Source of the DNA: an uncultured virus (IMG/VR IMGVR_UViG_3300009164_003518)
Taxonomy: Duplodnaviria; Heunggongvirae; Uroviricota; Caudoviricetes
IMG/VR virus record: IMGVR_UViG_3300009164_003518
Location: 52,958-72,957 of that record
Length of the DNA stretch: 20,000 nucleotides
Reading direction: 5' to 3' (one strand)
The notes under the pieces were generated by a model. That model was not told the DNA's origin and did no database searches. It saw nothing but the letters and a program-made list of their open reading frames with translations. The translations under genes and the position numbers were made by a program. Position 1 is the first letter of the stretch. Each line of letters opens with the position of its first letter. This document shows, piece after piece, positions 6,502 through 20,000 of this stretch.

Positions 6502-6506
6502 GTATG

Positions 6507-7351: not shown

Positions 7352-7359
7352 TATTTATA
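7352..7359 (-). promoter_or_regulatory. T4-type late promoter TATAAATA
   Basis: Exact consensus just downstream of a terminator and upstream of the epimerase GAGG RBS. Confidence 0.75.
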
Positions 7360-7377
7360 GGGTTGTTAAGAAGACAT

Positions 7378-7404
7378 AAAAAAAGCAGCCCTGAGGCTGC
7401 TTTT
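7378..7404 (-). terminator. rho-independent terminator
   Basis: Hairpin AAAAGCAGCC-CTGA-GGCTGCTTTT with a T7 tail on the minus strand. Confidence 0.85.
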
Positions 7405-7422
7405 AATTTAAGCAATAAGAGC

Positions 7423-7695: not shown

Positions 7696-7741
7696 AATAG
7701 TTTTCCTTGTTAGTGTTAGCTTTAATTGCTAACGTTCTATA

Positions 7742-7770
7742 AGTATAAGCGAAATGCGATGCAAGGTCAA
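7742..7770 (-). promoter_or_regulatory. sigma70-type promoter
   Basis: TTGACC-17-TATACT. Confidence 0.8.
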
Positions 7771-7789
7771 GATAAACGGTAAAACACGT

Positions 7790-8137
7790 TTAAATTTTAA
7801 TGCCCAATGTATCCACTTCTTCTTTTGATAATACGCCTTTAAAGGTCTTGCCGGGAAAACGCTGTCCAACCAAATCTAATGCTTCTTGAAGTGTAGCACC
7901 TTGTGCAAGGAATTCTTTAGTAGTATCGTTGTATAGATAAATCACGTCATCATGTCGCTCTACTCTAAGAGGATCTGAGCTGTCAGTTTCAGCATCATCG
8001 GGTTGTTTAAATTTTTCTAAAATTGTAATTAGAGAACCGGGATCCTCTAATAATTTATTCATTATTCGTTGAGTCCAGCGACTATGTAGCCACCAGCCGT
8101 AGATGAATCCCAATACAAAAGTTATTAAAATTTCCAT
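7790..8137 (-). CDS. hypothetical protein with N-terminal transmembrane anchor
   Basis: 115-aa ORF with hydrophobic N-terminus. Confidence 0.75.
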   Translation of the reverse strand: MEILITFVLGFIYGWWLHSRWTQRIMNKLLEDPGSLITILEKFKQPDDAETDSSDPLRVERHDDVIYLYNDTTKEFLAQGATLQEALDLVGQRFPGKTFKGVLSKEEVDTLGIKI

Positions 8138-8138
8138 G

Positions 8139-8321
8139 TTATGAATTTACCGTTTCTGTGAATCGTTGTAAAAAAGCATCAACTAAGCAATTGTAAGTAT
8201 TGCCAGTGTTAATGTTATCATAGTGAATCCAAGTTTCTTGATCATTGTTAATTACGTTCGAGACTTTGAACACAATCGATGCAGATGTTGTCCACCGTGA
8301 TCCTATTTTGATTTGTTTCAT
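8139..8321 (-). CDS. hypothetical protein (60 aa, MKQIKIGSRW...)
   Basis: TAAATA (8327-8332) lies 5 nt before ATG 8321. Confidence 0.65.
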   Translation of the reverse strand: MKQIKIGSRWTTSASIVFKVSNVINNDQETWIHYDNINTGNTYNCLVDAFLQRFTETVNS

Positions 8322-8335
8322 ATCTTTATTTAATG

Positions 8336-8623
8336 TTAACTGCCCCATTTTAGTATCCAATATGTATAATCTTTAGCAGTTAGTTTAGCCGTTACGATGT
8401 AACTATATCCGTAAGTTAAGTGATCCGTTTGCCTATGCCATTCGGGTTGATCCACAGCATGATTCATAACCCATTGGCCCATTTCACTTTGCTGCCATTC
8501 CCAAAGTGGTTGTGCGGCATAGAGATCTGGATCATCAACATCACCCATCTGAAAGCGATGCACTACCGCAGTTTTAATTTCAACTACTTGATCGTTAATG
8601 ACATTAAACTGATTGAGATACAT
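8336..8623 (-). CDS. hypothetical protein, F/W-x-L-K/R-W C-terminal family
   Basis: Ends YWILKWGS; start uncertain. Confidence 0.65.
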   Translation of the reverse strand: MYLNQFNVINDQVVEIKTAVVHRFQMGDVDDPDLYAAQPLWEWQQSEMGQWVMNHAVDQPEWHRQTDHLTYGYSYIVTAKLTAKDYTYWILKWGS

Positions 8624-8957
8624 TTTCCTCAGCGATGACCAATCTCTTGAAAGTTTCGAAGTTTCCCCGTGCTCTATCAAGTCCGGGGTATTTTCCACAT
8701 AGCTCATCTAACTGCTTTTCCTCTGCTTGTTTTTTGCTTGCCCAATCTAATATAGATTCTGCTTCGGGTGTTAGGCTTACTGTAGGATAGAATACGCTAA
8801 ATTGTTTCCACATGTTGCCATCATTAACTTCCATACAGTTCATATTAGAGTTCCATCGAAGCATGCCGGCGCCTACTGATCCTGGGCTAATATATGGATC
8901 ACTTACACCGCTGTTTGAAATAGTAATATACTTACTGCCATTGATGTTTTTAATCAT
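8604..8957 (-). CDS. hypothetical protein
   Basis: 117-aa ORF, ATGA-coupled. Confidence 0.75.
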   Translation of the reverse strand: MIKNINGSKYITISNSGVSDPYISPGSVGAGMLRWNSNMNCMEVNDGNMWKQFSVFYPTVSLTPEAESILDWASKKQAEEKQLDELCGKYPGLDRARGNFETFKRLVIAEENVSQSV

Positions 8958-9181
8958 TCGTTACCACTCCATCTTAATATAAACCAGTCTCGTTGGCTTT
9001 CTTTACGGAAGCTGAACAATCTATCAGTCATCCGCATGCCTTTACCAAACTCGCTGTTACACCAATCTTCCATTTCTTTAAGTTGAATTTCAGAAACTGG
9101 TATCGCATCTTCGTTATCATCGTCTTCAATAACTATGCCAGGTAGTCTAAACATACCCACTTCACAGGTCTTAAGTTTCAT
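8954..9181 (-). CDS. hypothetical protein, FxLRW family
   Basis: Ends RDWFILRWSGNE; ATGA-coupled. Confidence 0.75.
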   Translation of the reverse strand: MKLKTCEVGMFRLPGIVIEDDDNEDAIPVSEIQLKEMEDWCNSEFGKGMRMTDRLFSFRKESQRDWFILRWSGNE

Positions 9182-9330
9182 AATGATTTAATCCGTTCAA
9201 TAATCTGTTTTGCATCTAACATGTTGCTGGTTTCTAATAGTTTTTCAATAATACTATCTTGTTGATTATACACGGGTTGACACATATAGTCAAGACTGTA
9301 CGGTTGTGTCCATTTAATTGAGTATTTCAT
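9178..9330 (-). CDS. small hypothetical protein (50 aa, MKYSIKWTQPY...), absent from the ORF track
   Basis: Hand-translated; fills the gap exactly with ATGA overlaps at both ends. Confidence 0.7.
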   Translation of the reverse strand: MKYSIKWTQPYSLDYMCQPVYNQQDSIIEKLLETSNMLDAKQIIERIKSL

Positions 9331-9608
9331 GAGCTCCACCTTAATAAGAACATGGTTATTTGTTTGTCGTTAGTAAATTGAAACATGTCGAAACTGATAC
9401 GCTTTCCACATTTACTATCCTGGCACCACTTTTGGATTGGATCCATGTCTGATTCTTTCAAACCCAATTCAAATCCTCTTTGTTGAGGCAACCATGTGGC
9501 TTTGAGTTTTCGTCCGGGCAGTTGATGCCAAATGATCTTAGGTGGATTAGGCAACATGCGCATGAATGCCTGCGCAGACATTGCTCGTTTACTGTTAAAC
9601 CCTGTCAT
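9327..9608 (-). CDS. hypothetical protein, FxLRW family
   Basis: Ends MFLLRWSS; ATG 9608 in ATGA overlap. Confidence 0.75.
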   Translation of the reverse strand: MTGFNSKRAMSAQAFMRMLPNPPKIIWHQLPGRKLKATWLPQQRGFELGLKESDMDPIQKWCQDSKCGKRISFDMFQFTNDKQITMFLLRWSS

Positions 9609-9931
9609 GACCACCTCAATATAAACCAATCACGATCTTTGGCATTACGGAACCAAAACTTGGCATTGTTCACATACCAACGTTGATCAGCTGTCCGTAC
9701 ACCGTCTTTATGTGTAGGACCAAATGAGTTAACCATCCATTCCATCATATCGCTCCACTTACCTTCTGCATTCATAGGAGCCACTGTGAGATACTCGTGA
9801 CCAAACACTGTACCCTTGCTGTACTCTAAGTAGTAATCAAATACATAGCCCATACCTTTAAGAACCTGCTTATCAATATCGTCAGACATGCGTTGTCCGG
9901 CAGCATCTAAGATTGCTTGTTCTAATGTCAT
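9605..9931 (-). CDS. hypothetical protein, FxLRW family
   Basis: Ends RDWFILRWS. Confidence 0.75.
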   Translation of the reverse strand: MTLEQAILDAAGQRMSDDIDKQVLKGMGYVFDYYLEYSKGTVFGHEYLTVAPMNAEGKWSDMMEWMVNSFGPTHKDGVRTADQRWYVNNAKFWFRNAKDRDWFILRWS

Positions 9932-10293
9932 TTACGTGCTAACTCCAACAGCATCACATACTTTTGATAGGCTTTTTCCACTGCGGGATTGTTCAGCCTA
10001 ACATTCCTATCTTGTTCATAACGTGCCATCAGTTGTCGTTCTGAGTCAAGTCTTTTGTAATGTCCTTCTGCATCTGTAACAAAACCTATAAGGCTGTCTA
10101 ATCTATCTTTGGGCATTAGGATGTCAACACAGTCTACTTCTTCAATTTGCATTGCTGTCTGATAGAAAGTATTATCGCTAACAGCATAATTCCAAGCATT
10201 TGTCTTGTGCCACATGTTAGGAATCCTGCGTAGCTTGCGACGGCTTTGCTCCACACGCATATCAAACTTGTTAAAAAATTCTTCTTCCTTCAT
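9928..10293 (-). CDS. hypothetical protein
   Basis: 121 aa, ends NPAVEKAYQKYVMLLEL. Confidence 0.75.
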   Translation of the reverse strand: MKEEEFFNKFDMRVEQSRRKLRRIPNMWHKTNAWNYAVSDNTFYQTAMQIEEVDCVDILMPKDRLDSLIGFVTDAEGHYKRLDSERQLMARYEQDRNVRLNNPAVEKAYQKYVMLLELARK

Positions 10294-10508
10294 GATAGAT
10301 ACTTTAATGCAAATAGTGTTGAATACTTTTCTTCATAGAAGGTAAAATTAGTAAAGCCCTTGACATCACCAATCATTGGATCCCAACGGCTTTGATTGTA
10401 GGCAAAGTCAAAATGCACACCCTGTACCAATCCGCTGGCACGTAGTTCTTTAACTATCTCAATTACAGCTACTGGATTTTTATCTTTGACAACAACGGTT
10501 ATAGCCAT
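10290..10508 (-). CDS. hypothetical protein, FxLK(W/Y) family
   Basis: Ends LFALKYLS. Confidence 0.7.
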   Translation of the reverse strand: MAITVVVKDKNPVAVIEIVKELRASGLVQGVHFDFAYNQSRWDPMIGDVKGFTNFTFYEEKYSTLFALKYLS

Positions 10509-10819
10509 TTAAGTTTGAACCAATTGGCTTCCTTGTCTGAGCGCAAATAGATCTTAGTGTCATAGAACTCAGTGTGCCAACACCAATGTGTGTTAACATT
10601 GAACTCGTCAGATAACATCTGCAGATAGTGTTCACGCTCACAGCTCATGCCCCACGTCTGTATGCACCAATCTCGGACCTCTTGAAACTTTGTAATCTTT
10701 TGACTCTTGTTTAGCTTGGTATGGATTATAGCAAACGAAGTGTTCTTAATGTCAACTACATAGGCAAACACATCTGAGCCAGTGTATCGCTTGTCTGTTT
10801 TCTTAACAGTGATCTTCAT
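10499..10819 (-). CDS. hypothetical protein, FxLKW family
   Basis: Ends NWFKLKWL. Confidence 0.75.
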   Translation of the reverse strand: MKITVKKTDKRYTGSDVFAYVVDIKNTSFAIIHTKLNKSQKITKFQEVRDWCIQTWGMSCEREHYLQMLSDEFNVNTHWCWHTEFYDTKIYLRSDKEANWFKLKWL

Positions 10820-11022
10820 TTGTCTTCAAAACCAAAGAGTACTTTTAAATCGGCGCCGAGCAGATGCCCGTGTTCCCAAGTGCTACGAGCATACCGATCG
10901 CACTCCAATATAACCATTTTAGTATATTGCTCCACTGCGGCTTCCCACTTGACTCGATCCTTGCCCAGGCCGTAGACATCAATATGTGATTCTCTAACAA
11001 GTTCTCTAATTCGTTCGTTCAT
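10816..11022 (-). CDS. hypothetical protein, MNERI family
   Basis: Paralog of 11019-11255 and 11617-11829. Confidence 0.75.
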   Translation of the reverse strand: MNERIRELVRESHIDVYGLGKDRVKWEAAVEQYTKMVILECDRYARSTWEHGHLLGADLKVLFGFEDK

Positions 11023-11255
11023 TCTTCAACTCCAAAATGTTGTTTAATCTGTTCACCTATCATACGGCCTGTCCAAGCAGGATGATCCTCACAAGTCTGT
11101 AACATTTCTTTTACAATCAACTCGGCGAACTTTTCTAATCCCATTCCGTTAGTATAAACAATCTTTTCAAGACCTATTGCTGATGGGATATACCATTCGC
11201 CATCCATAACTTTACATCCAGCCTGTTCAGCAAGTTGTCGAATTCGTTCGTTCAT
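11019..11255 (-). CDS. hypothetical protein, MNERI family
   Basis: MNERI...EKFAELIVKE...HFGVEE. Confidence 0.8.
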   Translation of the reverse strand: MNERIRQLAEQAGCKVMDGEWYIPSAIGLEKIVYTNGMGLEKFAELIVKEMLQTCEDHPAWTGRMIGEQIKQHFGVEE

Positions 11256-11620
11256 TCTTCAACTCCTTCTGCAGGTTGATTGGGTATGTTGTCGGTATCG
11301 CCATCCTGTGCAACTACAAACCCCAAGTCCAACATGGTTTTCTGTTCGTCCCAGACACAGTGAGGACGAAATACAAACAGCCGTAAAGTAAGATTATCTC
11401 GGCTGTAGTAAATCCTGTATCGTACCGGATCCTCACCCAGGGCCGTGGCAAGTTCTTGCAATGTAAAACTTTCCGGCCAATCTTCATTCACACTGGTGCG
11501 AGTCTGCTCAAAGTAGAAATCCTGCATACGCTGTATGGCACTACCTTTGCCCCACAATGTGTTTTGCTCACACCATTGAATGGTGCGGTCCAGCATCGCT
11601 GTTGTAATTTCATTGTTCAT
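11252..11620 (-). CDS. hypothetical protein
   Basis: 122 aa; shares only its ends (MN.., GVEE) with the neighbouring family. Confidence 0.75.
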   Translation of the reverse strand: MNNEITTAMLDRTIQWCEQNTLWGKGSAIQRMQDFYFEQTRTSVNEDWPESFTLQELATALGEDPVRYRIYYSRDNLTLRLFVFRPHCVWDEQKTMLDLGFVVAQDGDTDNIPNQPAEGVEE

Positions 11621-11829
11621 TCTTCAACTCCGAAATGTTCTGCCAATGCATTATATGCTGTAGGACTTGCACACTTTTTAGCAACAACTTCCATACATTC
11701 CTTAACAATCAACTCAGCGAACTTTTCGTGATACACTTTTGCCCAGTTTTCTATATCAAGATTGTTTGGATGCAACTCGTCAGCATGTTGTCTTGCCAGT
11801 AGCGCAAGGTATTCGATTCTTTCGTTCAT
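11617..11829 (-). CDS. hypothetical protein, MNERI family
   Basis: MNERI...EKFAELIVKEC...HFGVEE. Confidence 0.8.
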   Translation of the reverse strand: MNERIEYLALLARQHADELHPNNLDIENWAKVYHEKFAELIVKECMEVVAKKCASPTAYNALAEHFGVEE

Positions 11830-12068
11830 TTGCGTAGTCCTTTGATATCTTTATATTTGACACGAATAATAGTGTGCCATTCTTTACCAATCTTCATAGG
11901 CAAGTCCAGACTGACACTGACCATAGGCCCTTCTGGCTCATTACGCATATTGTCTGTATAGGCAGTGCCCACAAAAGGTATCTTCATATATGTGCCTTCA
12001 ACCCTATCGCCAAACTTGTATTTGGGCTTAGGTCGATTGGCTTCAAAGTATTCAGCAAGACTTGCCAT
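11826..12068 (-). CDS. hypothetical protein, possibly SH3-like beta barrel
   Basis: 80 aa, YKFGDRVEG motif; coupled overlaps. Confidence 0.7.
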   Translation of the reverse strand: MASLAEYFEANRPKPKYKFGDRVEGTYMKIPFVGTAYTDNMRNEPEGPMVSVSLDLPMKIGKEWHTIIRVKYKDIKGLRK

Positions 12069-12289
12069 TAGATAACCCTGCCTAATCCTAACCAGATAAG
12101 TTGTTCAAGCTCAGTTTGATAGTCCTGTCCTAATCTACGTTTTTCGTAAATAGTCTGCAGGATCTCTTTGCCATCGCTGAAGCTGCCTGTGCCTGCACCG
12201 CGGCTTTCTAATTCTTCAATCAGGTCGTCTGTATCAAACTCTGATAAGTCAACATCTACCTCTACCTCGGTGTAAATTGTTTTATACAT
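12068..12289 (-). CDS. hypothetical acidic protein
   Basis: 73 aa, EVEVDVDLSEFDTDDLIEELE; AAGGA RBS. Confidence 0.75.
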   Translation of the reverse strand: MYKTIYTEVEVDVDLSEFDTDDLIEELESRGAGTGSFSDGKEILQTIYEKRRLGQDYQTELEQLIWLGLGRVI

Positions 12290-12740
12290 TATGTTCCTTT
12301 GTTAGTTCTACTACAAATAAAAACTTCTCATAAGCCTTGCGAACGATTGGGTTAGCCAATAGTTTGTCTGCTTCTTCTTGCATAGCTTTAACTCCTGCTT
12401 CGGCACAGTCGTGTACACTCAACCCGTGTAATGTACACAGGTCGTCACCAAACTCTTTGGCTAACTTTTCCCAAGCTCGCTTCTGCCCTACTGTGATAGG
12501 AGTACTCTTTGGACGCAGTTCGCTGGCTTTTGATATAGCCCGACAAATAGCATCTTCAGCTACACGGCCTGCGGCAATCATGGCAGCATAGTCAGGGTCG
12601 ATGTTATAGCGAGTACTTTTACCGCCAGGGTAGCTCATGACCAAATGTGTGCCTTTGGTAAAGCTGTCAAGGAAATTGTTGTCGTACTCGCTCACAGGCA
12701 CATACTTGCGGCCTATCTTTTCGTAGTAAATCTTTTTCAT
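12282..12740 (-). CDS. hypothetical protein (MKKIYYEK...)
   Basis: ATG 12740 avoids overlap with the upstream gene; ends NPIVRKAYEKF..VEL. Confidence 0.75.
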   Translation of the reverse strand: MKKIYYEKIGRKYVPVSEYDNNFLDSFTKGTHLVMSYPGGKSTRYNIDPDYAAMIAAGRVAEDAICRAISKASELRPKSTPITVGQKRAWEKLAKEFGDDLCTLHGLSVHDCAEAGVKAMQEEADKLLANPIVRKAYEKFLFVVELTKEHNV

Positions 12741-12750
12741 TGTACGAATC

Positions 12751-13521
12751 TCAAAATTGTTTATCAACAATATGATTATACATGATATCTTTAACTTTGT
12801 CAAACCTTTCTTGTTTATTCTTTGCGCCAAGAATAACTATGTAAAAGATTTGGCTATTCTGTTCAACTACTAAACCAACACACCAACCGGCCGGATTTGT
12901 AAATCCAGTTTTGGTAACAACAATATTGTCAAATTCAAATAACACCGGTGCATTGGTGTTTGGCAATACTATCTTTCGAATTTGTTTTTTAGCCTGAGTT
13001 TCAAATATTGCCTGTTTCTTAATACTGGTTGCTCGAATAAACTCGTTCTCTGAACTGGCTTTGAGTAGTTTAGCAACATCTCGAGCAGTACTTACATTGA
13101 ACACACTTAGTCCCGAAGGATCAATAAACTTAGTGTCAGTCATACCAAGTAGGTGAGCTTTTTGATTCATTGCTTTTAGAAAGCCTACGCGACCATTTGG
13201 GTAGTCTTCTGCTAATGTTTCAGCGGCTGCATTGTCACTGCGAACTAACATAGCAGTTAATAATTCTTCACGTGTATAACGATTTCTTGGTAATAGACTT
13301 CCAAACCTACTATGCAATGGTAACAGTGCATAGGGCGCATTACCGCTGTCCAATGCAACAAGGGCAGTCATTAACTTAGTAAGGCTGGCAAAAGGTCGCA
13401 CCCGATCAGGCGCCTGTGCAATTATAGTTTTATTAGTAGTTTGATTAAACAACAAGATGCTGGGCTCGGTGGCCCAGCATGTGTTCGATACAACGATAAT
13501 AACTGCCGCTATAAATCGCAT
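12751..13521 (-). CDS. D-alanyl-D-alanine carboxy/endopeptidase (peptidase S11, PBP7/PbpG-like)
   Basis: Signal peptide; SxxK (ASLTK), SxN (SDN) and KTG motifs; MNQKA..LGM..T.F.DPSGL. Confidence 0.92.
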   Translation of the reverse strand: MRFIAAVIIVVSNTCWATEPSILLFNQTTNKTIIAQAPDRVRPFASLTKLMTALVALDSGNAPYALLPLHSRFGSLLPRNRYTREELLTAMLVRSDNAAAETLAEDYPNGRVGFLKAMNQKAHLLGMTDTKFIDPSGLSVFNVSTARDVAKLLKASSENEFIRATSIKKQAIFETQAKKQIRKIVLPNTNAPVLFEFDNIVVTKTGFTNPAGWCVGLVVEQNSQIFYIVILGAKNKQERFDKVKDIMYNHIVDKQF

Positions 13522-13533
13522 ACATCGACAATA

Positions 13534-14094
13534 TTACAACTGAGTTTCTTTCCACCGATCTGCACGGGCACGTGAGCCTTCTGGATCAATGTGATACTCA
13601 TCAATAGCATGACGTAACGCTTGTTCTACAAACTGATTAAAAGTTATATCTTTTTCATGTGCCATTTTCATATATTGAAGGAGCTCATGATCCGGGATAT
13701 CAATTGGTAAACTTACACGAGTATCATAGTCTTCACCTTCTTTAATGGCCAAACACTTTTGGAAGAAGTCATCGTCGACTTCTAAATCTATATAGTCTAC
13801 TTCGTCCCACGCTTGGTCTTTGTTGATGCCACGATGGTCAGCTTCATCCTGCATGTCTGCACTGAAGTCTGAATTGATCATTCGGTATGCACGGTTGTGT
13901 ACATAGTCATGTGCTTGAACTTCGTAGACTGTTTGATTGTCAGTATCAAAAATAATACTAAAACTATATCCGTCTTGCTCTCCATTCCAACTGTCCAATT
14001 GATAGACATCGGTGCCATAACATTGCCAGCCGTAATTGCTGCCTTCTGTAATGCGATAATCTACAAGTTCCATCCATTCTTTAATAGTGATCAT
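13534..14094 (-). CDS. hypothetical protein with possible C-terminal ribbon-helix-helix
   Basis: 186 aa; VSLPIDIPD..L..YMKMAHEKDITFNQFVEQAL resembles an RHH pattern. Confidence 0.7.
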   Translation of the reverse strand: MITIKEWMELVDYRITEGSNYGWQCYGTDVYQLDSWNGEQDGYSFSIIFDTDNQTVYEVQAHDYVHNRAYRMINSDFSADMQDEADHRGINKDQAWDEVDYIDLEVDDDFFQKCLAIKEGEDYDTRVSLPIDIPDHELLQYMKMAHEKDITFNQFVEQALRHAIDEYHIDPEGSRARADRWKETQL

Positions 14095-14414
14095 TTTATA
14101 ACTTCCTTTGATTTGTGGGTAACGAAAACTGACTTGCCTTTTTCTCTAATTAAGTCTGCTAACTCTTGCGGACTGTCCTTACTGTACTCGATTACAGTTT
14201 CTATATCAACACTGCTCCAAAAGGTCCATATCTCTGGGAACCTTTGCGGGTTTGCTTTGGCCCGCATGATCAATGCTCCTATGGGGAACTTACTCGTTGC
14301 GGGCTTGTCTGTTAGGGCGGCCCACATTGCTTTTTTATCTAACTCTGTGAGATCAACTACACACTCAAAGCCCAGAGTATCAAAATAGGCAAGTAATAGA
14401 TTATCCTGTTGCAT
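14091..14414 (-). CDS. hypothetical protein
   Basis: 107-aa ORF, ATGA-coupled. Confidence 0.75.
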   Translation of the reverse strand: MQQDNLLLAYFDTLGFECVVDLTELDKKAMWAALTDKPATSKFPIGALIMRAKANPQRFPEIWTFWSSVDIETVIEYSKDSPQELADLIREKGKSVFVTHKSKEVIK

Positions 14415-14416
14415 AA

Positions 14417-15091
14417 TTAACCTTGTACTGTTACGGCCTGTTCAAATAGCCATTCGTCGTTAAGTGTAGCATCGCTGATAAACTCTGGATTGTGTACGAA
14501 ACAACGATCCTTCTTAGACTCGTAAGTGATTACCAAAGTCTTGTCAGTGTCTGCATGATTACGCACATGATGCTTCTTAACTGAGTCTGCTGGTTTAACC
14601 TGTACAGGATAGTCTCCAATCCAAGCATCAATGCCCTGTGTTTCTTCTTCGGCTGTACTCCAACGATGTTCAAGGTCAAAGTATTTGGCCACTGCCAGTA
14701 CACTGTGATACTCACCGCTCATGCCATAATGGGTTTTGTTAATTACCAAGTCTGTGATGTAGGCTTCGGCAACTGCTTTGGTGAACACAGTTCTATCTAA
14801 CGGCATCTTTGACAGCATGTCCCAGAGCTTGTCTGCGGCACTGGCTATCTTTGCTTGTCCTTTATGCTGAGTAAAGTAGAACTCCTGCCATGCTTCAACA
14901 GAATGTCCTGTTGTCTGCTTTGTGGCTAAAAACTCTGTAAACAGCTCTTTCATACTGCCCACAGTCTTTACCTGTGTGGCTTTGCTGTTTTGAGTAGCAA
15001 TGTTCAACACAGGCTTTGAGTACTTAGGAAAGTCAAAGTCACTGTTGCGTTTAGTCAACGATTGAAAGTGTTTGGCAGTAAGTGTTAGCAT
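14417..15091 (-). CDS. MjaI-family type II restriction endonuclease (PD-(D/E)xK)
   Basis: FPKY...LN.A.QN...T....VG.M.EL..EF; W..FY; LVI.KT..G; T.EEE.QGIDAWIG..PVQVKP, matching the RE_MjaI pattern as recalled. Confidence 0.8.
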   Translation of the reverse strand: MLTLTAKHFQSLTKRNSDFDFPKYSKPVLNIATQNSKATQVKTVGSMKELFTEFLATKQTTGHSVEAWQEFYFTQHKGQAKIASAADKLWDMLSKMPLDRTVFTKAVAEAYITDLVINKTHYGMSGEYHSVLAVAKYFDLEHRWSTAEEETQGIDAWIGDYPVQVKPADSVKKHHVRNHADTDKTLVITYESKKDRCFVHNPEFISDATLNDEWLFEQAVTVQG

Positions 15092-15117
15092 ATGAGTAGT
15101 TCTTAAACAATACAGTA

Positions 15118-15146
15118 ATTATACAACGGATCTTGATCCCTGTCAA
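15118..15146 (-). promoter_or_regulatory. perfect sigma70 promoter driving the REase and downstream genes
   Basis: TTGACA-17-TATAAT. Confidence 0.9.
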
Positions 15147-15167
15147 CAATTATCTCAGCCAAACAGC

Positions 15168-15998
15168 TTAATCTACTGCGGGAATTGGGCAACGTAGATC
15201 TATTTGACTAACCCTATTGGCTATACGAACTTCATCAAAATAAGCAACCTGTGTGGGCATTGGCGCACCGTGTCTACTGACAAAACTGCGATAGATACCA
15301 TATTTAAAGTAAAAGTAATCAGGATCCCAAGTTACCACAGGCGATGCTATGTCTGCTTTGACTTGGCCATTAACCCATACTTTGAGCTTGCCAGTACGGC
15401 TGTTAGTGTCAATTTCAAACTGTACATCTGTCCACTTGCCCTGCATGTCTGCCAGCTTGGCCAAGGGCCAATATTCGCACTTGTCCACTACATTGTTAAT
15501 GTCACCTGTGAGTCTGTGTATGCACATTTGATACTGCCCGTTCCACAGTTCAAATTGCAGTAAGGGGCCATTCTTAAACCAGGCCTTTTGGTGCAGTTGA
15601 CCCAGGGTGGTCTTTACTATGGGGCTGTCTTGGAACCCTGGCTCAAGATACACACTCCAGCTGATGGCTGTTTGGCTGGCTGGACGTATTTGTGCATCAG
15701 TGACCCATTCACTGCGTTCTCGATCTTGCTGGCAATCACTCCATGTGGCGTCAGCTGAACAGTCACCTGGGCGTACTTCGTAGCGTTGGGCTCGGGTACC
15801 CATGCGTACAGGTGTAGTGACTTGAGCCCACCCCCATGCTGTGTCACTGAGACTACGGCGCCCGGGAGCGGCCCAGCTTTGGCTGGTAGGCTCGCATACT
15901 GCTTTTGCTTCGGCCTCGCTGATAGCTGAACCCCCACCACCCCCACAGGCCTGCAGGGCTATGGCCAGGGCCACAATGGTAAACTTAGGCTTTAACAT
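15168..15998 (-). CDS. polysaccharide lyase-like lipoprotein (Polysacc_lyase beta-jelly roll)
   Basis: Lipobox LQAC plus Gly linker; RERSE, GQLH, GKWTD, KVWVNG, YFKYGIYR; AGGAG RBS before ATG 15998. Confidence 0.8.
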   Translation of the reverse strand: MLKPKFTIVALAIALQACGGGGGSAISEAEAKAVCEPTSQSWAAPGRRSLSDTAWGWAQVTTPVRMGTRAQRYEVRPGDCSADATWSDCQQDRERSEWVTDAQIRPASQTAISWSVYLEPGFQDSPIVKTTLGQLHQKAWFKNGPLLQFELWNGQYQMCIHRLTGDINNVVDKCEYWPLAKLADMQGKWTDVQFEIDTNSRTGKLKVWVNGQVKADIASPVVTWDPDYFYFKYGIYRSFVSRHGAPMPTQVAYFDEVRIANRVSQIDLRCPIPAVD

Positions 15999-16323
15999 GT
16001 TTACAGTCTCCTCTGTATGTGTACCCTGGGCAGGTACAGGTTTTCTCTGTTGTGTTGACAAAATACACTTGGCCCTTTGAGCCCTGTACTTCTACTACGT
16101 CACTGGGTGTGAGCACATTGAATGACCCTGTGAACTGGGCTGAGTCCACGGGTTCAAACTTACGTCCCGAGCGGCTGATGGTGATGGGCTTCTTAAACCA
16201 AAAGGGCTCTGTGGTACCCAGACGTATATAAGCCAGCATCTTGTCGCCACTGAGCAGGTAGGTGTGGTTCACTTGGGTAGCACCATCGGTCCATTGGGTT
16301 ATTTCTTTGAAGGCCTGTTCCAT
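15985..16323 (-). CDS. SWIM zinc-finger protein
   Basis: GSKG..Y.V.....CTCPGYTYRGDCKH; ATG 16323 in TAATG overlap. Confidence 0.8.
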   Translation of the reverse strand: MEQAFKEITQWTDGATQVNHTYLLSGDKMLAYIRLGTTEPFWFKKPITISRSGRKFEPVDSAQFTGSFNVLTPSDVVEVQGSKGQVYFVNTTEKTCTCPGYTYRGDCKHVKA

Positions 16324-16517
16324 TACCACTGCTCCCCACGTTGGCGGCGAATGATGGCCTCGTTCTGCATGTTGGGTAACTGTTGCCAAGTCTCACCACA
16401 GCGTATGCAGGGGTCATAGGGTTTGTAGCCCATACTTTGCTTTTTTACTGCATAGTAGAACTCAGGGCTGGCACAGCCTGTGAGCAGGGTCACGATGATT
16501 AAGTATATAATACGCAT
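16323..16517 (-). CDS. small lipoprotein with CxxC
   Basis: Lipobox LTGC; PCIRCGE. Confidence 0.7.
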   Translation of the reverse strand: MRIIYLIIVTLLTGCASPEFYYAVKKQSMGYKPYDPCIRCGETWQQLPNMQNEAIIRRQRGEQW

Positions 16518-16521
16518 GATA

Positions 16522-17109
16522 TTAATGGCGTGTTATGCCCAGAGTGATTCTGCCCGGTGTTCGACCGTGCTCTTTAACAAACTGATTGCCTTTGTAAGCA
16601 TGACAGCACTTGCAGAGGGTTTGAAAATTGCTGGGCTTATCGTTACTGGGGTTTTCATCTATGTGATCCACATCTAACATACCGCTCCAAGCTATGGTAG
16701 TGGTACATACAAAACCCAGTCTGCCGTCCTGATTCTCGCAATGGTCTTTGCGATATTGCCGATAAGGATGTCGACTGTTAACATAGTCAGCATGGGAGGT
16801 GAATCCTGCTTTGTGTGCCACTACGTCGTCGATGTTTCTAATCCAATCTGCGCCTGTTTTCTCTGCGTAGCGTTTGGCTGTGCGCTGATGATGACACTGA
16901 CTGCAGACTGTTCTATACACAGGCTCTCCTGAAGTCCAGTGCCAATCCTGTACCGCTCGTTCGTTTGAACAGCCTTCTTCAGAGCAACGGGGGTGAACCA
17001 TACTGCTATAAACCCTGTGTGGCTTCCTGGGTGTGCCCTGTGCAAGAGCAATTTCTCGGGCTGTGTTGTGCCCAAATTGATTGAGTTCTCTAATAGTATA
17101 GCGAGCCAT
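16522..17109 (-). CDS. HNH endonuclease-like protein with N-terminal Zn finger
   Basis: CSEEGC...CSQCH; LDVDHIDENPSN...NFQTLCKCCH. Confidence 0.8.
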   Translation of the reverse strand: MARYTIRELNQFGHNTAREIALAQGTPRKPHRVYSSMVHPRCSEEGCSNERAVQDWHWTSGEPVYRTVCSQCHHQRTAKRYAEKTGADWIRNIDDVVAHKAGFTSHADYVNSRHPYRQYRKDHCENQDGRLGFVCTTTIAWSGMLDVDHIDENPSNDKPSNFQTLCKCCHAYKGNQFVKEHGRTPGRITLGITRH

Positions 17110-17139
17110 AAAGTCCCTTTGTGTGTTAGTGTAGTGTTT

Positions 17140-17168
17140 ATTATAACAGTTATCCCGAACTCAGTCAA
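17140..17168 (-). promoter_or_regulatory. sigma70-type promoter
   Basis: TTGACT-17-TATAAT. Confidence 0.85.
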
Positions 17169-17169
17169 C

Positions 17170-17177
17170 TATAAATA
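17170..17177 (+). promoter_or_regulatory. T4-type late promoter TATAAATA
   Basis: Exact consensus, back-to-back with the leftward sigma70 promoter. Confidence 0.7.
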
Positions 17178-17218
17178 ACCCATATGACAACCAAAATTAA
17201 CCCGATATTCAAAACAAC

Positions 17219-18073
17219 ATGATACATGCTTTTGGCTGCAGTTTTACACGCTATCAATGGCCCACATGGGCAGACTTACTCAATCAAATAGAACCCTGTG
17301 TTAACTACGGCAGCCCGGGCACGGGCAACAAGGCCATATATACCCGAATGGCCAATGCTCTGTTCACGGGTAAGATCACACAGGGAGTAGATCGAGTTAC
17401 CATACAGTGGACAGGCCATACACGCTATGATCTTTGGCTGGGTCCAAAACAGTGGCAGCAGTTGGGCAATGTGTGGAATCAAACAGGAGACAGCCCTGTG
17501 ACCAGTGCGTTTCTACAGCATTTGTGGAGTGACCAAGACGCACTGATACAGACTCTGATATTGGTACAGTCAGCGGCTCTGCTACTTAACTATCACAAAA
17601 TAGCCTATCACTTTGTGTTTATGAATAACCTGCGCAGTTTCACTTTGGAAACGGGTAATCACAGCCTTGGACCCTATCCTGATCTCTTAGATCCACACTG
17701 GCAGAACTTTGACAAGTTAAATCGCAGTGAACTCAGCATGACAGACTGGGTCAAGCAGAGCAGAAAAACACGGAAACCCTGTTTGTGGCAGTGGGACAAA
17801 CACCGTCCTGCAAGCGATGATCTACACCCAGAACCCTGGGAAGCCTACACTTATGCAAAGAAAGAGTTGGGCTCTGTGCTGAGATGGCAACCTGAGCAAT
17901 GGCAGCAACTGGCCACTATAGCAGAGCAATGTCAACAGGAACTACGGGAGTACAATGCTGAGAATCCTCAGTGCTTGATGTACGTAAACAAGAATAACCT
18001 TAACTACTATCCCGGAGCTCCTATATATAAAGAAGGTCATATCAAATATCTACGTGATCAAGAGCTGATCTAA
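17219..18073 (+). CDS. SGNH-fold hydrolase/acyltransferase-like protein
   Basis: FGCSFT, NYGxxGxGN, IQWT...R.D, DLHP. Confidence 0.7.
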   Translation: MIHAFGCSFTRYQWPTWADLLNQIEPCVNYGSPGTGNKAIYTRMANALFTGKITQGVDRVTIQWTGHTRYDLWLGPKQWQQLGNVWNQTGDSPVTSAFLQHLWSDQDALIQTLILVQSAALLLNYHKIAYHFVFMNNLRSFTLETGNHSLGPYPDLLDPHWQNFDKLNRSELSMTDWVKQSRKTRKPCLWQWDKHRPASDDLHPEPWEAYTYAKKELGSVLRWQPEQWQQLATIAEQCQQELREYNAENPQCLMYVNKNNLNYYPGAPIYKEGHIKYLRDQELI

Positions 18074-18273
18074 AACACAGTTAGATAATCCGCATAACAT
18101 AACAGCAGCCAAGTAATGTGCTTATTGGGCTCTGCTTCAATACGCCAACACCAATATGAATCTCCTACATGTATATAGGGACCGGGATACATCACTATGT
18201 CATTGAGTTGACAATAGCGATAGATGCTGTCAATAACGGGACTGTGGCTGTCAAGAGTAACGCATATACGCAT
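18070..18273 (-). CDS. hypothetical protein (67 aa, MRICVTLD...)
   Basis: TAAATA (18282-18287) lies 8 nt before ATG 18273; the longer predicted N-terminus runs through repeats. Confidence 0.6.
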   Translation of the reverse strand: MRICVTLDSHSPVIDSIYRYCQLNDIVMYPGPYIHVGDSYWCWRIEAEPNKHITWLLLCYADYLTVF

Positions 18274-18311
18274 AGTATGATTATTTACTGTATATACAGC
18301 ATATTGAGCAT

Positions 18312-18396
18312 AGGCCCCGCTGTGTGTATATAGACTACAGTAGAGCAAGGCCCCGCTGCGCGGTCTGCACAGTTTGGGCCCACAGGCCCCGCTGCG
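18312..18396. repeat. three AGGCCCCGCTG repeats at exact 36-bp period
   Basis: Copies start at 18312, 18348 and 18384. Confidence 0.85.
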
Positions 18397-18678
18397 AGTG
18401 TCCGTAGCCACGAAGTGGACAGCGCAAAAAAGTTTTTTAGGTGGCCCCTGATAGAGTATTCACTGTATATACAGTATAGAACCAGAGTGGCGCCAGGATT
18501 GAGAGGGGATTACTATAAGCGTGTGTGTTTTTTTGGCTGTGTTGTGCGGGGTTTTAAGATGGGTTTTGACTATTTGAACTATGCCTCTCTGCCCCAGCCG
18601 TCTCAAAAATTTTTTACTCTAAGCCACGCCATCCTGATCTTATGATTTGACTCTAAATCAAGGATTCGTTGCACAATT

Positions 18679-18799
18679 TTGCACTTTGTCACACTTTTCC
18701 ACAGAATCTTGACTCATCAACCGCACTCGTTCACGCTACAGCGTAGGCCATGGGATCTAAATTGCACTTTTGGCCATTCTACTTGCACTTTGTCACACT
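18679..18799. repeat. 17-bp direct repeat TTGCACTTTGTCACACT
   Basis: 18679-18695 and 18783-18799; partial copies at 18669 and 18762. Confidence 0.8.
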
Positions 18800-18905
18800 G
18801 TGTCTAATATAGTAGACATTGCCGTCACTGTGTATGGTATACTGTACATTCACGGCGGTCTCTGTGCTTGGTCTGCTATATACAGTATATGGACCGGGAG
18901 TCATA

Positions 18906-19130
18906 ATGATCAATAACCTTGCACACATCCGCTATGGTCAACACAGTGTACACTTAGCTAAGAACACTGAGACTGGCAGTATAGTCTGTTTTAAGTATAA
19001 TGATCGACGCTGTGACTTACGTGTATTTGACCGAGACCAAAGTGATCAATGTGCTGAGTACATGCTACAGTCAATACCTGCTTTTGGATGGGGTTTTGTT
19101 GAGGATTCCGAAGCAGAAAACACAGAATAG
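18906..19130 (+). CDS. hypothetical protein (74 aa, MINNLAHIRY...)
   Basis: GGGAG RBS at 18896-18900 before ATG 18906. Confidence 0.55.
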   Translation: MINNLAHIRYGQHSVHLAKNTETGSIVCFKYNDRRCDLRVFDRDQSDQCAEYMLQSIPAFGWGFVEDSEAENTE

Positions 19131-19177
19131 GGGCCGGCGGTAATACTATCGTTTGCAATTTTTTCGGCTGTTTTCTA

Positions 19178-19308
19178 TGTGGATAACTCTGTGGATAACT
19201 TTTCGCTGTTGTTTTTTCGCCACAGTGGATAACCTGTGGATAAGTTCTGAGATTTAAAGTTATCCACAGCCAAAATGTTGTCCACAGGTTATACATCAGT
19301 TATCCACA
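19178..19308. promoter_or_regulatory. DnaA-box cluster (oriC/datA-like)
   Basis: Perfect boxes at 19178, 19190, 19235 (TGTGGATAA) and 19260, 19300 (TTATCCACA); 1-mismatch boxes at 19224 and 19278. Confidence 0.85.
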
Positions 19309-19362
19309 GCTGAAAACACAGGCGCTGTCGCCGTCCACCCCCACCTTGTTCGAACAGTCTTT

Positions 19363-19391
19363 ATTATACTGTCTTTTGGGCGAACCGTCAA
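19363..19391 (-). promoter_or_regulatory. sigma70 promoter pointing into the DnaA-box array
   Basis: TTGACG-17-TATAAT. Confidence 0.8.
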
Positions 19392-19438
19392 CCGATTCAG
19401 AGAGACCCTACACAGAGAGTGTGTTCTTTTAGCCACAG

Positions 19439-19467
19439 TTGACGAAAGTGTGTTTTGGCTGTAAAAT
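19439..19467 (+). promoter_or_regulatory. sigma70 early promoter
   Basis: TTGACG-17-TAAAAT followed by an AAGGA RBS. Confidence 0.8.
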
Positions 19468-19489
19468 TAGGGCTTAAAACAAGGAAACT

Positions 19490-19639
19490 ATGTACGCAAT
19501 CGTTAACATTAATACTAAAGCTATTAACTATTATACAACCGAAAATGCCGCTTCAGAAGCGTGTCGCGTATACAATGTATTACCGGGCCATAAAGTTTAT
19601 ATTATAGACTTTACATTATCATTAATCGAACAGTTATAA
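19490..19639 (+). CDS. small hypothetical protein (49 aa, MYAIVNINTK...), absent from the ORF track
   Basis: Hand-translated; promoter and RBS upstream. Confidence 0.7.
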   Translation: MYAIVNINTKAINYYTTENAASEACRVYNVLPGHKVYIIDFTLSLIEQL

Positions 19640-19650
19640 AAAGGATTATC

Positions 19651-19800
19651 ATGTCAGAAACTATTACTACAAAAGATAAACTCACCAGTTTAATGTTGCA
19701 AATGCAAGACATTATCATGGAGGATTATGAAGATAATGAAGATATTCAAAATGCATTTAATGCGCTTGCAAGTGCATTTGATTATTATATAGAAGATTAA
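19651..19800 (+). CDS. small acidic protein (49 aa, MSETITTKDK...), absent from the ORF track
   Basis: Hand-translated; AAGGA RBS; 12 D/E versus 2 K. Confidence 0.75.
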   Translation: MSETITTKDKLTSLMLQMQDIIMEDYEDNEDIQNAFNALASAFDYYIED

Positions 19801-19815
19801 TATTATCTAATAATA

Positions 19816-19839
19816 CTGTGTGGCGTTAAAGCCACACAG
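19816..19839. repeat. inverted repeat CTGTGTGGC-GTTAAA-GCCACACAG
   Basis: Perfect 9-bp arms, 16 bp upstream of a -35 box. Confidence 0.75.
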
Positions 19840-19855
19840 CGAGTGCGGTCTGGGG

Positions 19856-19884
19856 TTGACGTTTTGGGCCCGTAGTGCTATAAT
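19856..19884 (+). promoter_or_regulatory. sigma70 early promoter with extended -10
   Basis: TTGACG-17-TATAAT with TG upstream of the -10; AAGGAG RBS. Confidence 0.85.
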
Positions 19885-19907
19885 AGACACATAGTAAGGA
19901 GAGAGCG

Positions 19908-20000
19908 ATGACAAGACGTACACCCAGATCAGATTGCAACTACATCATCTACGCTATGACCAGCGAGCGGGGTGATTCGTACATTGGCTTGACACGTAAG
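19908..20000 (+). CDS. GIY-YIG nuclease-family protein, N-terminus (3' truncated)
   Basis: MTRRTPRSDCNYIIYAMTSERGDSYIGLTRK carries an IIY...YIG motif. Confidence 0.7.
   Translation, partial: MTRRTPRSDCNYIIYAMTSERGDSYIGLTRK

What the first reader, a model, noticed from the sequence alone, without database searches (positions are those of the whole stretch)
14417..15146. Orphan MjaI-family (CTAG-type) restriction endonuclease in a phage region with no CTAG sites
Seen: the 224-aa ORF is the first gene behind a perfect TTGACA-17-TATAAT promoter, and no methyltransferase occurs in the window. My line-by-line manual scan found no CTAG in the 20 kb. CTA is very common (always followed by A, C or T), and GATC, GTAC, AGCT, GGCC and TGCA are abundant. 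A rough composition estimate would give several tens of CTAG sites. Known: MjaI, the family prototype, recognises CTAG. Inference: the phage expresses a methylase-free REase early to cut host or competitor DNA and protects itself by having purged the site. Caveat: CTAG is commonly depleted in Proteobacteria and their phages, and this homolog's specificity is unproven.
Basis: partly seen in the sequence, partly recalled or inferred. Interest (0 to 1): 0.9.

Follow-up and report, generated by a model that had tools for sequence, protein, structure and literature searches.

The report
Methylase-free restriction enzyme, site-free phage
A large freshwater phage carries a CTAG-type restriction enzyme with no protective methylase and has no CTAG anywhere in its known DNA, a pairing that recurs in many related phages and suggests that they can cut foreign DNA without harming their own.

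Summary
The 224-aa ORF (window 14417-15091, minus strand) is a clear MjaI-family restriction endonuclease (Pfam PF09568, E 3e-29). It sits behind a perfect TTGACA-17-TATAAT promoter. CTAG occurs 0 times in the window, 0 times in the 72,957-bp record (196 expected) and 0 times in the 114,735-bp contig that contains it (304 expected). No DNA methyltransferase was found in that contig.

- Enzyme-only genomes are essentially CTAG-free: 6 sites against about 1,854 expected over 26 contigs and genomes in 11 enzyme lineages. They include the cultured, complete Synechococcus phage S-SM2 (0 against 291 expected, no methylase).
- Relatives with the enzyme plus an adjacent N4/N6 methylase keep some CTAG (observed/expected 0.12-0.62, some short contigs 0).
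- Relatives without the enzyme are normal: six Kyanoviridae score 0.81-1.05, and 80 of 80 contigs with a 78-93% identical ribonucleotide reductase score 0.35-1.42.

The solitary enzyme genes are under purifying selection (dN/dS 0.03-0.15).

Best reading (about 0.7): an active CTAG endonuclease that needs no methylase because the phage has eliminated its target. Unproven: the enzyme's activity and specificity, its timing, its target (host or rival DNA), and whether the phage's own enzyme or a host enzyme drove the purge.

The parts
14417..15091 (-). Solitary MjaI-family type II restriction endonuclease gene (224 aa). It has an N-terminal helical part and a C-terminal nuclease-like core with invariant E150, D155, Q164 and K166.
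   Evidence: Pfam PF09568 E 3.2e-29. The residues are invariant in a 20-sequence alignment. AlphaFold model mean pLDDT 82.6. Residues about 120-213 resemble PD-(D/E)XK nucleases only weakly (I-Ssp6803I Z 6.3, Hjc Z about 5). dN/dS against the closest solitary homolog is 0.146.
15118..15146 (-). Consensus sigma-70-type promoter, TTGACA-17-TATAAT, directly upstream of the endonuclease gene.
   Evidence: 12 of 12 matches. Comparable promoters lie 46-57 nt upstream of the gene in other lineages that otherwise share no flanking sequence: L006, L025, L026/27 and L028-32.
1..20000 (.). CTAG-free phage DNA. The whole window lacks the presumed recognition site, as do the 72,957-bp record and the 114,735-bp parent contig.
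   Evidence: 0 CTAG against 68.6 expected in the window, 196 in the record and 304 in the parent contig. In coding sequence both relevant reading frames are purged: expected 116 (CTA|G) and 122 (xCT|AGx), observed 0 and 0.
12751..14414 (-). Three tightly packed downstream ORFs, probably in the same transcription unit: 107 aa and 186 aa of unknown function, then a Peptidase_S11 D-Ala-D-Ala carboxypeptidase. None is a methyltransferase.
   Evidence: ORF coordinates. Pfam and PHROG results. The next perfect promoter lies at 12803..12775. Co-transcription is inferred from spacing only.

Best explanation
The gene encodes an active type IIP restriction endonuclease of the MjaI family that recognises CTAG. 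The phage keeps it without a partner methyltransferase because its own DNA contains no CTAG, so the enzyme has nothing to cut there.

Proposed course of events:
- Host RNA polymerase transcribes the gene from a consensus sigma-70 promoter.
- The enzyme cuts any unmethylated CTAG-bearing DNA in the cell: the host chromosome and co-infecting phages or plasmids.
- Host DNA cleavage would feed nucleotide salvage, since the contig also encodes ribonucleotide reductase, nucleases and a nucleotidase. Cleavage of rival DNA would exclude competitors.

Proposed evolutionary route:
- A phage acquires the enzyme-plus-methylase cassette.
- CTAG is progressively lost under imperfect self-protection.
- Once no sites remain, the methylase is dispensable and is lost, or the enzyme gene moves on its own.

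Shown here: family membership, the promoter, total absence of CTAG, absence of a methylase in the known DNA, the three-way association across relatives, and purifying selection. Inferred: catalytic activity, CTAG specificity, timing, the target, and the order of evolutionary events.
For: 1. Family and residues. PF09568 at 102 bits. E150, D155, Q164 and K166 are invariant in 20 homologs. D155 and K166 also hold in the 14 full-length rows of the wider alignment, cyanophage and bacterial members included (3 of its 17 rows were truncated and lack the region), where Q164 is S. MjaI is an active CTAG enzyme (PMC2615612, passages read).

2. Site purge. 0 of 304 expected over 114.7 kb, and CTAG is the only absent tetramer. 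The purge is independent of reading frame.

3. Enzyme without methylase goes with zero CTAG.
- Whole contigs: G002 0/165, G004 0/325, G005 0/145, G006 0/127, G007 0/111.
- 12 of 12 further viral loci have 0 sites against 20-46 expected each.
- Complete cultured phage S-SM2 has 0/291. It has no PF01555, PF00145 or PF02086 gene, and its enzyme matches the family at E 1e-46.

4. Enzyme plus adjacent methylase goes with partial depletion. G003 76/122, L022 7/18, S-H9-2 61/450, S-CAM3 76/424, S-RIM32 8/69.

5. No enzyme goes with normal CTAG.
- S-BM3 scores 0.81. S-RIM44, S-H9-1, S-RSM4, S-MbCM7 and Sf-CH1a score 0.94-1.05.
- 80 of 80 contigs with 78-93% identical ribonucleotide reductase score 0.35-1.42, two of them from the same metagenome as the window's contig.
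- A 357,559-bp relative rated 100% complete lacks the gene.
- Sf-CH1a (1.02) and S-H9-2 (0.14) were isolated on the same host strain, WH8102. That argues against a purely host-driven effect.

6. The solitary genes are maintained. dN/dS is 0.03-0.15 in 9 unsaturated pairs, 8 of them within enzyme-only clades.

7. Methylase presence changes at least 3 to 5 times on the enzyme tree. The gene sits in non-syntenic contexts.

8. At 998 relative-by-site pairs where relatives have CTAG, the window's contig never does. The commonest replacements are single-base variants: CAAG 176, CTAA 136, CTGG 87, CCAG 79, CTTG 71.
Against: - No biochemical evidence. Activity and CTAG specificity are inferred from a family prototype with which the enzyme shares only a Pfam-level match.
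- Only about a third of the genome is known.
- The fold match to PD-(D/E)XK nucleases is weak (best Z 6.3; Foldseek gave nothing at E <= 0.001).
- Two of 26 enzyme-only contigs do carry CTAG near a contig end: L029 has 4 in its last kb and L040 has 2 in its first 83 bases. For two of L029's sites the homologous stretch in a relative has none, so they may be real or may be assembly joins.
- Some methylase-bearing contigs are also CTAG-free (L027 0/11.8, L034 0/9.4), so the purge can precede methylase loss.
- Total avoidance of a 4-bp site can arise without a matching phage enzyme. CCGG is 0-1 in most Kyanoviridae, and 0 of 5 searched carry an HpaII-family enzyme.
- Most of the 80 reductase relatives were judged 'without enzyme' only from the 5-22 kb fetched.
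- The promoter class is common in the contig, so early expression is not established.
Confidence: 0.7

Rival explanations
1. Host-driven avoidance. The hosts of these phages carry a CTAG-specific restriction system, which purged CTAG from the phage genomes. The phages then picked up the enzyme, or the enzyme-methylase pair, from such hosts. The enzyme is tolerated because no sites are left, but it did not cause the purge.
For: - Complete loss of a tetramer without a matching phage enzyme is seen for CCGG in Kyanoviridae (0/92, 0/95, 1/159). No HpaII-family gene was found in 5 of 5.
- Some methylase-bearing contigs are already CTAG-free.
- Other palindromes are also strongly depleted in some enzyme-only contigs, which shows host pressure exists: AGCT 4/107 in G007 and CGCG 1/20 in G006.
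Against: - Phages isolated on the same host strain differ according to whether they carry the enzyme: S-H9-2 scores 0.14 and Sf-CH1a 1.02, both on WH8102.
- 80 of 80 close relatives, including two from the same metagenome, are not depleted.
- The 11 prokaryotic homologs found were in Poribacteria, Clostridia, Calditrichaeota, Desulfosalsimonadaceae, Lentisphaeria, Pseudomonadota and Bacteroidota MAGs, none in cyanobacteria. That scan only reaches near relatives.
- This rival does not explain the purifying selection on the solitary gene.
Confidence: 0.17
2. The homolog is no longer a CTAG endonuclease. It is inactive, has another specificity, or serves as a DNA-binding or regulatory protein. 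The absence of CTAG has an unrelated cause.
For: - No assay exists.
- Solitary restriction genes in prokaryotes are often suspected to be inactive or dependent on their methylase (PMC3488263, passages read).
- Q replaces S at the position before the conserved lysine, compared with the classical branch.
- CTAG is underrepresented in 55% of prokaryotic genomes for reasons unrelated to restriction (PMC4687349, passages read).
Against: - The tetramer that is wiped out in every enzyme-only genome is exactly the family prototype's site. It ranks first of 256 in G001, G004-G007 and S-SM2.
- Depletion tracks the presence of the gene and not the clade.
- The family-wide acidic and lysine residues are invariant.
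- dN/dS is 0.03-0.15.
Confidence: 0.08
3. Ordinary restriction-modification system whose methylase lies in the unsequenced two thirds of the genome.
For: - The contig is about 33% complete.
- Separated restriction and modification genes exist in prokaryotes (PMC3488263).
Against: - With no CTAG in 114.7 kb a CTAG methylase would have no substrate in the known DNA.
- In every methylase-bearing relative the methylase is immediately downstream of the enzyme gene.
- The complete S-SM2 genome has the enzyme and no PF01555, PF00145 or PF02086 gene.
Confidence: 0.05

Closest known systems
MjaI / MthZI / BfaI type IIP restriction-modification systems (CTAG)
   Same: Same Pfam family (PF09568). Relatives of the window's gene are paired with a beta-class methylase carrying the SPPY motif, like the m4C CTAG methylases M.MjaI, M.MthZI and M.BfaI (PMC5867850). 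MjaI is an active CTAG enzyme (PMC2615612).
   Different: The enzyme here stands alone, is phage-borne and is driven by its own consensus promoter. Protection comes from absence of the site and not from methylation. The sequence is distant from the cellular members: the related G003 phage enzyme is 27-35% identical to full-length bacterial homologs.
Phage avoidance of host restriction sites (survey: PMC6286503; phage K lacking GATC is recalled, not checked)
   Same: A short palindrome is eliminated from a phage genome by selection at the DNA level.
   Different: The eliminated site here matches an enzyme encoded by the phage itself, and its loss tracks the presence of that gene across relatives. 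A term search of that survey for CTAG, 'encoded by', 'own', 'cyano' and 'orphan' found none of them.
Solitary restriction endonucleases in prokaryotic genomes (Ershova et al. 2012, PMC3488263)
   Same: A type II restriction gene without an adjacent methylase.
   Different: That survey covers cellular genomes. It explains solitary genes by distant methylases, inactivity or nucleoid protection. The word 'avoid' does not occur in its text. Here the genome itself is site-free.
Virus-encoded nucleases that destroy host DNA while viral DNA is chemically protected: chlorovirus restriction-modification pairs, and T4 EndoII/EndoIV with hydroxymethylcytosine (recalled, not checked here)
   Same: A virus nuclease discriminates host from viral DNA so that host DNA can be degraded.
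   Different: Those systems rely on modification of viral DNA. Here discrimination would rest on sequence content alone.
Homing endonucleases
   Same: The carrier is immune because its own DNA lacks an intact target.
   Different: Homing targets are long and unique, and the gene's own insertion disrupts them. Here a 4-bp site, expected about 2.6 times per kb, is absent genome-wide.

Membership tests
RE_MjaI (Pfam PF09568) restriction endonucleases | Significant full-length match to the family profile | tested here: met
   E 3.2e-29, 102.3 bits against a cut-off of 22.7, profile positions 2-161 of 164.
RE_MjaI (Pfam PF09568) restriction endonucleases | Family-conserved putative catalytic residues retained (acidic cluster, Asp, x-K) | tested here: met
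   E150, D155, Q164 and K166 are invariant in 20 homologs. D155, K166 and the EE(E/S) cluster hold in the 14 full-length rows of the wider alignment, cyanophage and bacterial members included; 3 of its 17 rows were truncated. Position 164 is S in those cyanophage and bacterial members. That these residues are catalytic is inferred.
RE_MjaI (Pfam PF09568) restriction endonucleases | PD-(D/E)XK-type nuclease fold | tested here: inconclusive
   Model pLDDT 82.6. Foldseek gave no hit at E <= 0.001. VIA-align best matches for residues about 120-213 are nucleases at low Z: I-Ssp6803I 6.3, Hjc 5.0-5.1, HhaI 4.3.
RE_MjaI (Pfam PF09568) restriction endonucleases | Cleavage at CTAG | not testable with these tools
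   Indirect only. CTAG is the single tetramer erased from every enzyme-only genome and depleted in the enzyme-plus-methylase phages.
Type II restriction-modification system | Cognate methyltransferase encoded with the endonuclease | tested here: not met
   No DNA methylase in the window or in the 114.7-kb contig. Relatives G003, L022, L026/27, L031, L034-36, S-H9-2, S-CAM3 and S-RIM32 do have one immediately downstream. The genome is only about 33% known.
Type IV (modification-dependent) restriction enzymes | Modification-sensing domain or family typical of methyl-dependent enzymes | tested here: not met
   The only Pfam hit is RE_MjaI. Close homologs are paired with a methylase, which would be self-defeating for a methyl-dependent enzyme.

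The most novel reading that the evidence does not exclude
A recurrent phage strategy. A type II restriction enzyme is kept as a methylase-free weapon against host or rival DNA, and self-immunity is achieved solely by erasing every copy of its 4-bp target from a genome of 190-350 kb. It would arise through a ratchet: the enzyme-methylase pair is acquired, sites are depleted, then the methylase is lost. This happened at least three times. It is present in the cultured cyanophage S-SM2, which makes it directly testable.
Probability: 0.55. Interest if true: 0.85.

Novelty: new variant of a known kind. Interest (0 to 1): 0.82.

Why it matters
Restriction enzymes are taught as needing a partner methylase to spare their owner's DNA. 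Here self/non-self discrimination would rest only on what the genome does not contain.

If confirmed, this would:
- explain how phages without modified bases can shred host or competitor DNA safely;
- add an explanation for solitary restriction genes;
- show that a virus can purge roughly a thousand sites from a 350-kb genome;
- give a genomic footprint (one tetramer missing) that predicts the specificity of uncharacterised restriction enzymes in metagenomes.

A cultured phage-host pair, S-SM2 on marine Synechococcus, carries the same arrangement, so ordinary experiments can test the idea.

Tried and rejected
- Megablast of 6 kb around the gene against the phage collection found nothing.
I counted in scripts on the fetched DNA.
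- NCBIfam gave no family for the enzyme.
- A profile search of solved structures found nothing at E <= 1.
- Foldseek against the PDB found nothing at E <= 0.001.
- The homodimer prediction gave no verdict: score 0.39 against a mark of 0.42, with one control at 0.35. It counts neither way.
- The first scan of prokaryotic genomes, with the phage-clade alignment, found no relative. The second, with the S-SM2 enzyme, found 11 MAG loci and no cyanobacteria.
- RNA evidence is thin. One lake-water metatranscriptome library held a 256-nt contig identical to window 14536-14791 and three other exact or near-exact pieces in the window. DNA carry-over cannot be excluded, and parts without cover mean nothing.
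- Synteny: the flanks of the enzyme gene are unrelated in all three sister pairs compared, so a precise methylase deletion could not be traced.
- I considered a sequencing or assembly artefact. I rejected it because two related contigs from the same metagenome as the window's contig have normal CTAG (L156 0.99, L171 1.02).
- I considered stop-codon or translational effects. I rejected them because TAG is abundant (1,713 occurrences in the contig) and both non-stop frames are purged.
- Literature: six searches and term look-ups in six papers found no report of a phage-borne solitary enzyme whose site is missing from the phage genome (searches; look-ups: 77, 79, 81, 96, 105; a seventh search, only looked for the paper named next). 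The S-H9-2 paper mentions its restriction-modification genes only as possible anti-restriction. The paper that first described S-SM2 (recalled: Sullivan et al. 2010) is not in the library and was not seen.

Full report
THE OBSERVATION

The minus-strand ORF at window 14417-15091 encodes 224 residues. It matches Pfam RE_MjaI (PF09568) at E 3.2e-29, 102 bits, over nearly the whole profile. It also falls in PHROG 14722, of unknown function. In the 76-bp gap upstream lies TTGACA, 17 nt, TATAAT at 15146..15118, 12 of 12 matches.

CTAG does not occur in the window, where dinucleotide shuffles give 68.6 +/- 8.2. The window is the last 20 kb of a 72,957-bp virus record, which also has no CTAG (196 expected by a second-order Markov model). 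That record is 99.99% identical to part of a 114,735-bp IMG/VR contig (G001). G001 has 0 CTAG against 304 expected and is rated 33% complete, which implies a phage of roughly 350 kb.

CTAG is the only one of the 256 tetramers missing from G001. The next lowest is CGCG at 0.42. CTA occurs 1,668 times and TAG 1,713 times, but never as CTAG. In predicted genes both possible non-stop frames are purged: expected 116 and 122, observed 0 and 0. Selection therefore acts on the DNA and not on codons.

Pfam scans of the ORFs of all 114.7 kb found no DNA methyltransferase (two ORFs straddling fetch boundaries were not scanned as proteins). Six-frame searches for PF00145 and PF02086 were also negative.

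WHAT KIND OF PHAGE

The contig carries ribonucleotide reductase, Hsp70, Hsp20, ClpS, ribosomal protein S21, heme oxygenase with a bilin reductase, IscU/IscA and two giant ORFs. One giant ORF is a virion structural protein whose best database relatives are T4-like cyanomyophages, at 36-45% identity over 30-42% of its length.

It has 35 near-consensus sigma-70 promoters, 10 of them perfect, against 4.85 in shuffles, almost all on the coding strand. The enzyme's promoter is thus real but typical of this phage. It does not by itself show early expression. The host is unknown.

RELATIVES: THE NATURAL EXPERIMENT

I collected homologs of the enzyme from several sources:
- viral contigs;
- metagenome contigs;
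- the phage collection;
- the large protein database, which gave 70 hits, all unnamed metagenomic proteins carrying PF09568.

For each locus I counted CTAG and looked for a methylase homologous to the one found next to the enzyme in relative G003 (PF01555, E 1.4e-40, immediately downstream). Three classes emerged.

(a) Enzyme only
- Whole contigs: G001 0/304, G002 0/165, G004 0/325 (160 kb), G005 0/145, G006 0/127, G007 0/111.
- 12 of 12 further viral loci had 0 sites against 20-46 expected each.
- Ten metagenome contigs were CTAG-free except L029 (4 sites, all in the last kb) and L040 (2 sites, at bases 4 and 83).
- The cultured, complete Synechococcus phage S-SM2 has 0/291 over 190,789 bp. 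Its enzyme scores E 1.2e-46 against the family, and it has no PF01555, PF00145 or PF02086 gene anywhere.
- Added up by hand from those calls, this is 6 sites observed against about 1,854 expected.

(b) Enzyme plus adjacent methylase
- G003 76/122 (0.62), L022 7/18, L035 2/7.
- L027 0/11.8 and L034 0/9.4.
- Cyanophages S-H9-2 61/450 (0.14), S-CAM3 76/424 (0.18) and S-RIM32 8/69 (0.12).

(c) No enzyme
- S-BM3 scores 0.81 over its whole genome. S-RIM44, S-H9-1, S-RSM4, S-MbCM7 and Sf-CH1a score 0.94-1.05 in 80-kb samples, and PF09568 is absent from all five.
- Closest to the window, 80 of 80 viral contigs whose ribonucleotide-reductase large subunit is 78-93% identical to the window phage's score 0.35-1.42. 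None of the 77 with at least 15 expected sites is CTAG-free. That is closer than G003, at 70% identity.
- Two of these contigs come from the same metagenome as G001, which also rules out an assembly artefact.
- A 357,559-bp member rated 100% complete lacks the gene.
- For most of the 80 contigs only the fetched 5-22 kb could be checked for the gene.

A rough Fisher test gives p = 1.4e-14. It sets 11 enzyme-only lineages, all purged, against 83 enzyme-less genomes or contigs, none purged. The test ignores relatedness and treats the two lineages with the L029 and L040 exceptions as purged.

IS THE SOLITARY GENE ALIVE?

- Nine pairs of enzyme genes with unsaturated synonymous change gave dN/dS of 0.03-0.15, eight of them within enzyme-only clades. 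The window's gene against its 85%-identical relative gave 0.146.
- E150, D155, Q164 and K166 are invariant in 20 homologs. D155, K166 and the acidic cluster also hold in the 14 full-length rows of the wider alignment, which include cyanophage and bacterial members.
- The AlphaFold model (pLDDT 82.6) has a helical N-terminal half. Its C-terminal alpha/beta core resembles PD-(D/E)XK nucleases only weakly (best Z 6.3).
- One RNA-library contig matches the gene exactly, which is a weak hint of transcription.

EVOLUTION

- On the enzyme tree, methylase presence changes at least 3 times (well-supported branches) and up to 5 times. The methylase-bearing cyanophage branch lies outside the rest.
- The methylases are orthologous (74-84% identical among the clade) and carry an SPPY motif. 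This fits the beta-class m4C CTAG methylases M.MjaI, M.MthZI and M.BfaI (PMC5867850). That SPPY marks N4-cytosine enzymes is recalled knowledge.
- The enzyme gene is the only shared segment between sister loci. In several lineages it brings its own consensus promoter, so it behaves as a small mobile cassette.
- The series normal (about 1), then 0.6, then 0.1-0.2, then 0 with a methylase, then 0 without one suggests a ratchet. Imperfect self-protection depletes sites, and once none remain the methylase can go.
- At 998 relative-by-site pairs where reductase-region relatives have CTAG, G001 never does. The commonest replacements are single-base variants.

RIVALS

The main rival is that a host CTAG system drove the purge and the enzyme was captured later. 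Points for it:
- CCGG is completely missing from most Kyanoviridae, yet 0 of 5 searched carry an HpaII-family enzyme.
- Some methylase-bearing contigs are already CTAG-free.

Points against it:
- Depletion follows the phage's gene and not the clade or the isolation host. S-H9-2 scores 0.14 and Sf-CH1a 1.02, both on WH8102.
- The solitary gene is under selection.

Under either reading, the end state is the same: an enzyme that needs no methylase because the genome lacks its site.

An inactive or re-purposed protein, or a methylase hidden in the unsequenced part of the genome, is less likely. The reasons are given under the rival explanations.

KNOWN AND NEW

- MjaI is an active CTAG enzyme (PMC2615612).
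- CTAG is generally underrepresented in prokaryotes (PMC4687349).
- Phages avoid host restriction sites (PMC6286503).
- Solitary restriction genes exist in cells (PMC3488263).
- Six full-text searches and the passages read turned up no description of a phage-borne, methylase-free type II enzyme matched by a genome-wide purge of its site (a seventh, only looked for the original S-SM2 genome paper). The library lacks many subscription papers, including that S-SM2 paper.
- I rate this a new variant of a known kind.

VERDICT

- Confidence in the mechanism is about 0.7.
- Enzyme activity, specificity, timing and target remain to be shown, and S-SM2 offers a cultured system in which to do so.

Noticed in passing
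phage records W02, W03, W05-W10 (loci L078-L141): CCGG is absent or nearly absent in most marine cyanomyophages examined: 0/92 in S-BM3, 0/95 in S-H9-2, 1/159 in S-CAM3, and 0-1 in the 80-kb samples of five others. It is present in S-SM2 (74/166). No HpaII-family enzyme was found in 5 of 5 searched. The cause is unknown. Host restriction is likely.
   Followed up: partly
W06 (Cyanophage S-RIM44), loci L122-L125: GTAC occurs 0 times against 234 expected in an 80-kb sample. Whether this phage carries a GTAC-specific endonuclease, which would be a second case of the same principle, was not checked.
   Followed up: no
G007 (L071-L073), G004 (L056-L063), G006 (L068-L070), W05: Other palindromes are strongly but not completely depleted in some of these phages: AGCT 4/107 in G007 and 90/447 in G004, CGCG 1/20 in G006, TTAA 76/552 in S-BM3.
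   Followed up: no
window 2451-3263 (-), 3707-4219 (-), 16522-17109 (-): A DNA/RNA non-specific endonuclease (Endonuclease_NS, E 3.6e-36) and two HNH endonucleases lie in the same window. In relative G002 an HNH gene sits directly upstream of the restriction enzyme gene.
   Followed up: no
G000 1-53000 (loci L001-L004) and window 1-12000: The phage has an unusual cargo for its kind: Hsp70/DnaK, Hsp20, ClpS, ribosomal protein S21, heme oxygenase plus ferredoxin-dependent bilin reductase, IscU and IscA, a PAAR protein, AlgH-like and DUF454 proteins, lipases, a polysaccharide lyase and a D-Ala-D-Ala carboxypeptidase. Relatives add IF-1, ClpX, ClpP, isocitrate lyase, TerC, PstS-like protein, ferritin and an adenylate/guanylate cyclase domain.
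   Followed up: no
G000 34271-49939 (L004:1271-16939, minus strand): Two adjacent giant ORFs of 2,956 and 2,260 aa. The first has no Pfam or PHROG match and contains internal DNA repeats of 72-92% identity, seen as off-diagonal blastn hits. The second is a virion structural protein related to cyanomyophage proteins.
   Followed up: partly
G001 whole contig; window 12775-12803, 15118-15146, 17140-17168: There are 35 near-consensus sigma-70 promoters, 10 of them perfect TTGACA-17-TATAAT, against 4.85 in shuffles, nearly all on the coding strand. For a roughly 350-kb phage this implies heavy reliance on the host's primary sigma factor.
   Followed up: partly
L029:4931-5725; L040:4-83: These are the only CTAG sites found in enzyme-only contigs, and they cluster at contig ends. 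They may be assembly joins between co-occurring strains or recently imported DNA. This is unresolved.
   Followed up: partly
W05 (S-BM3) 85580-86227: S-BM3 has a PF01555 methylase (E 4e-50) but no MjaI-family enzyme, and near-normal CTAG at 0.81. It is an orphan methylase of unknown specificity.
   Followed up: no
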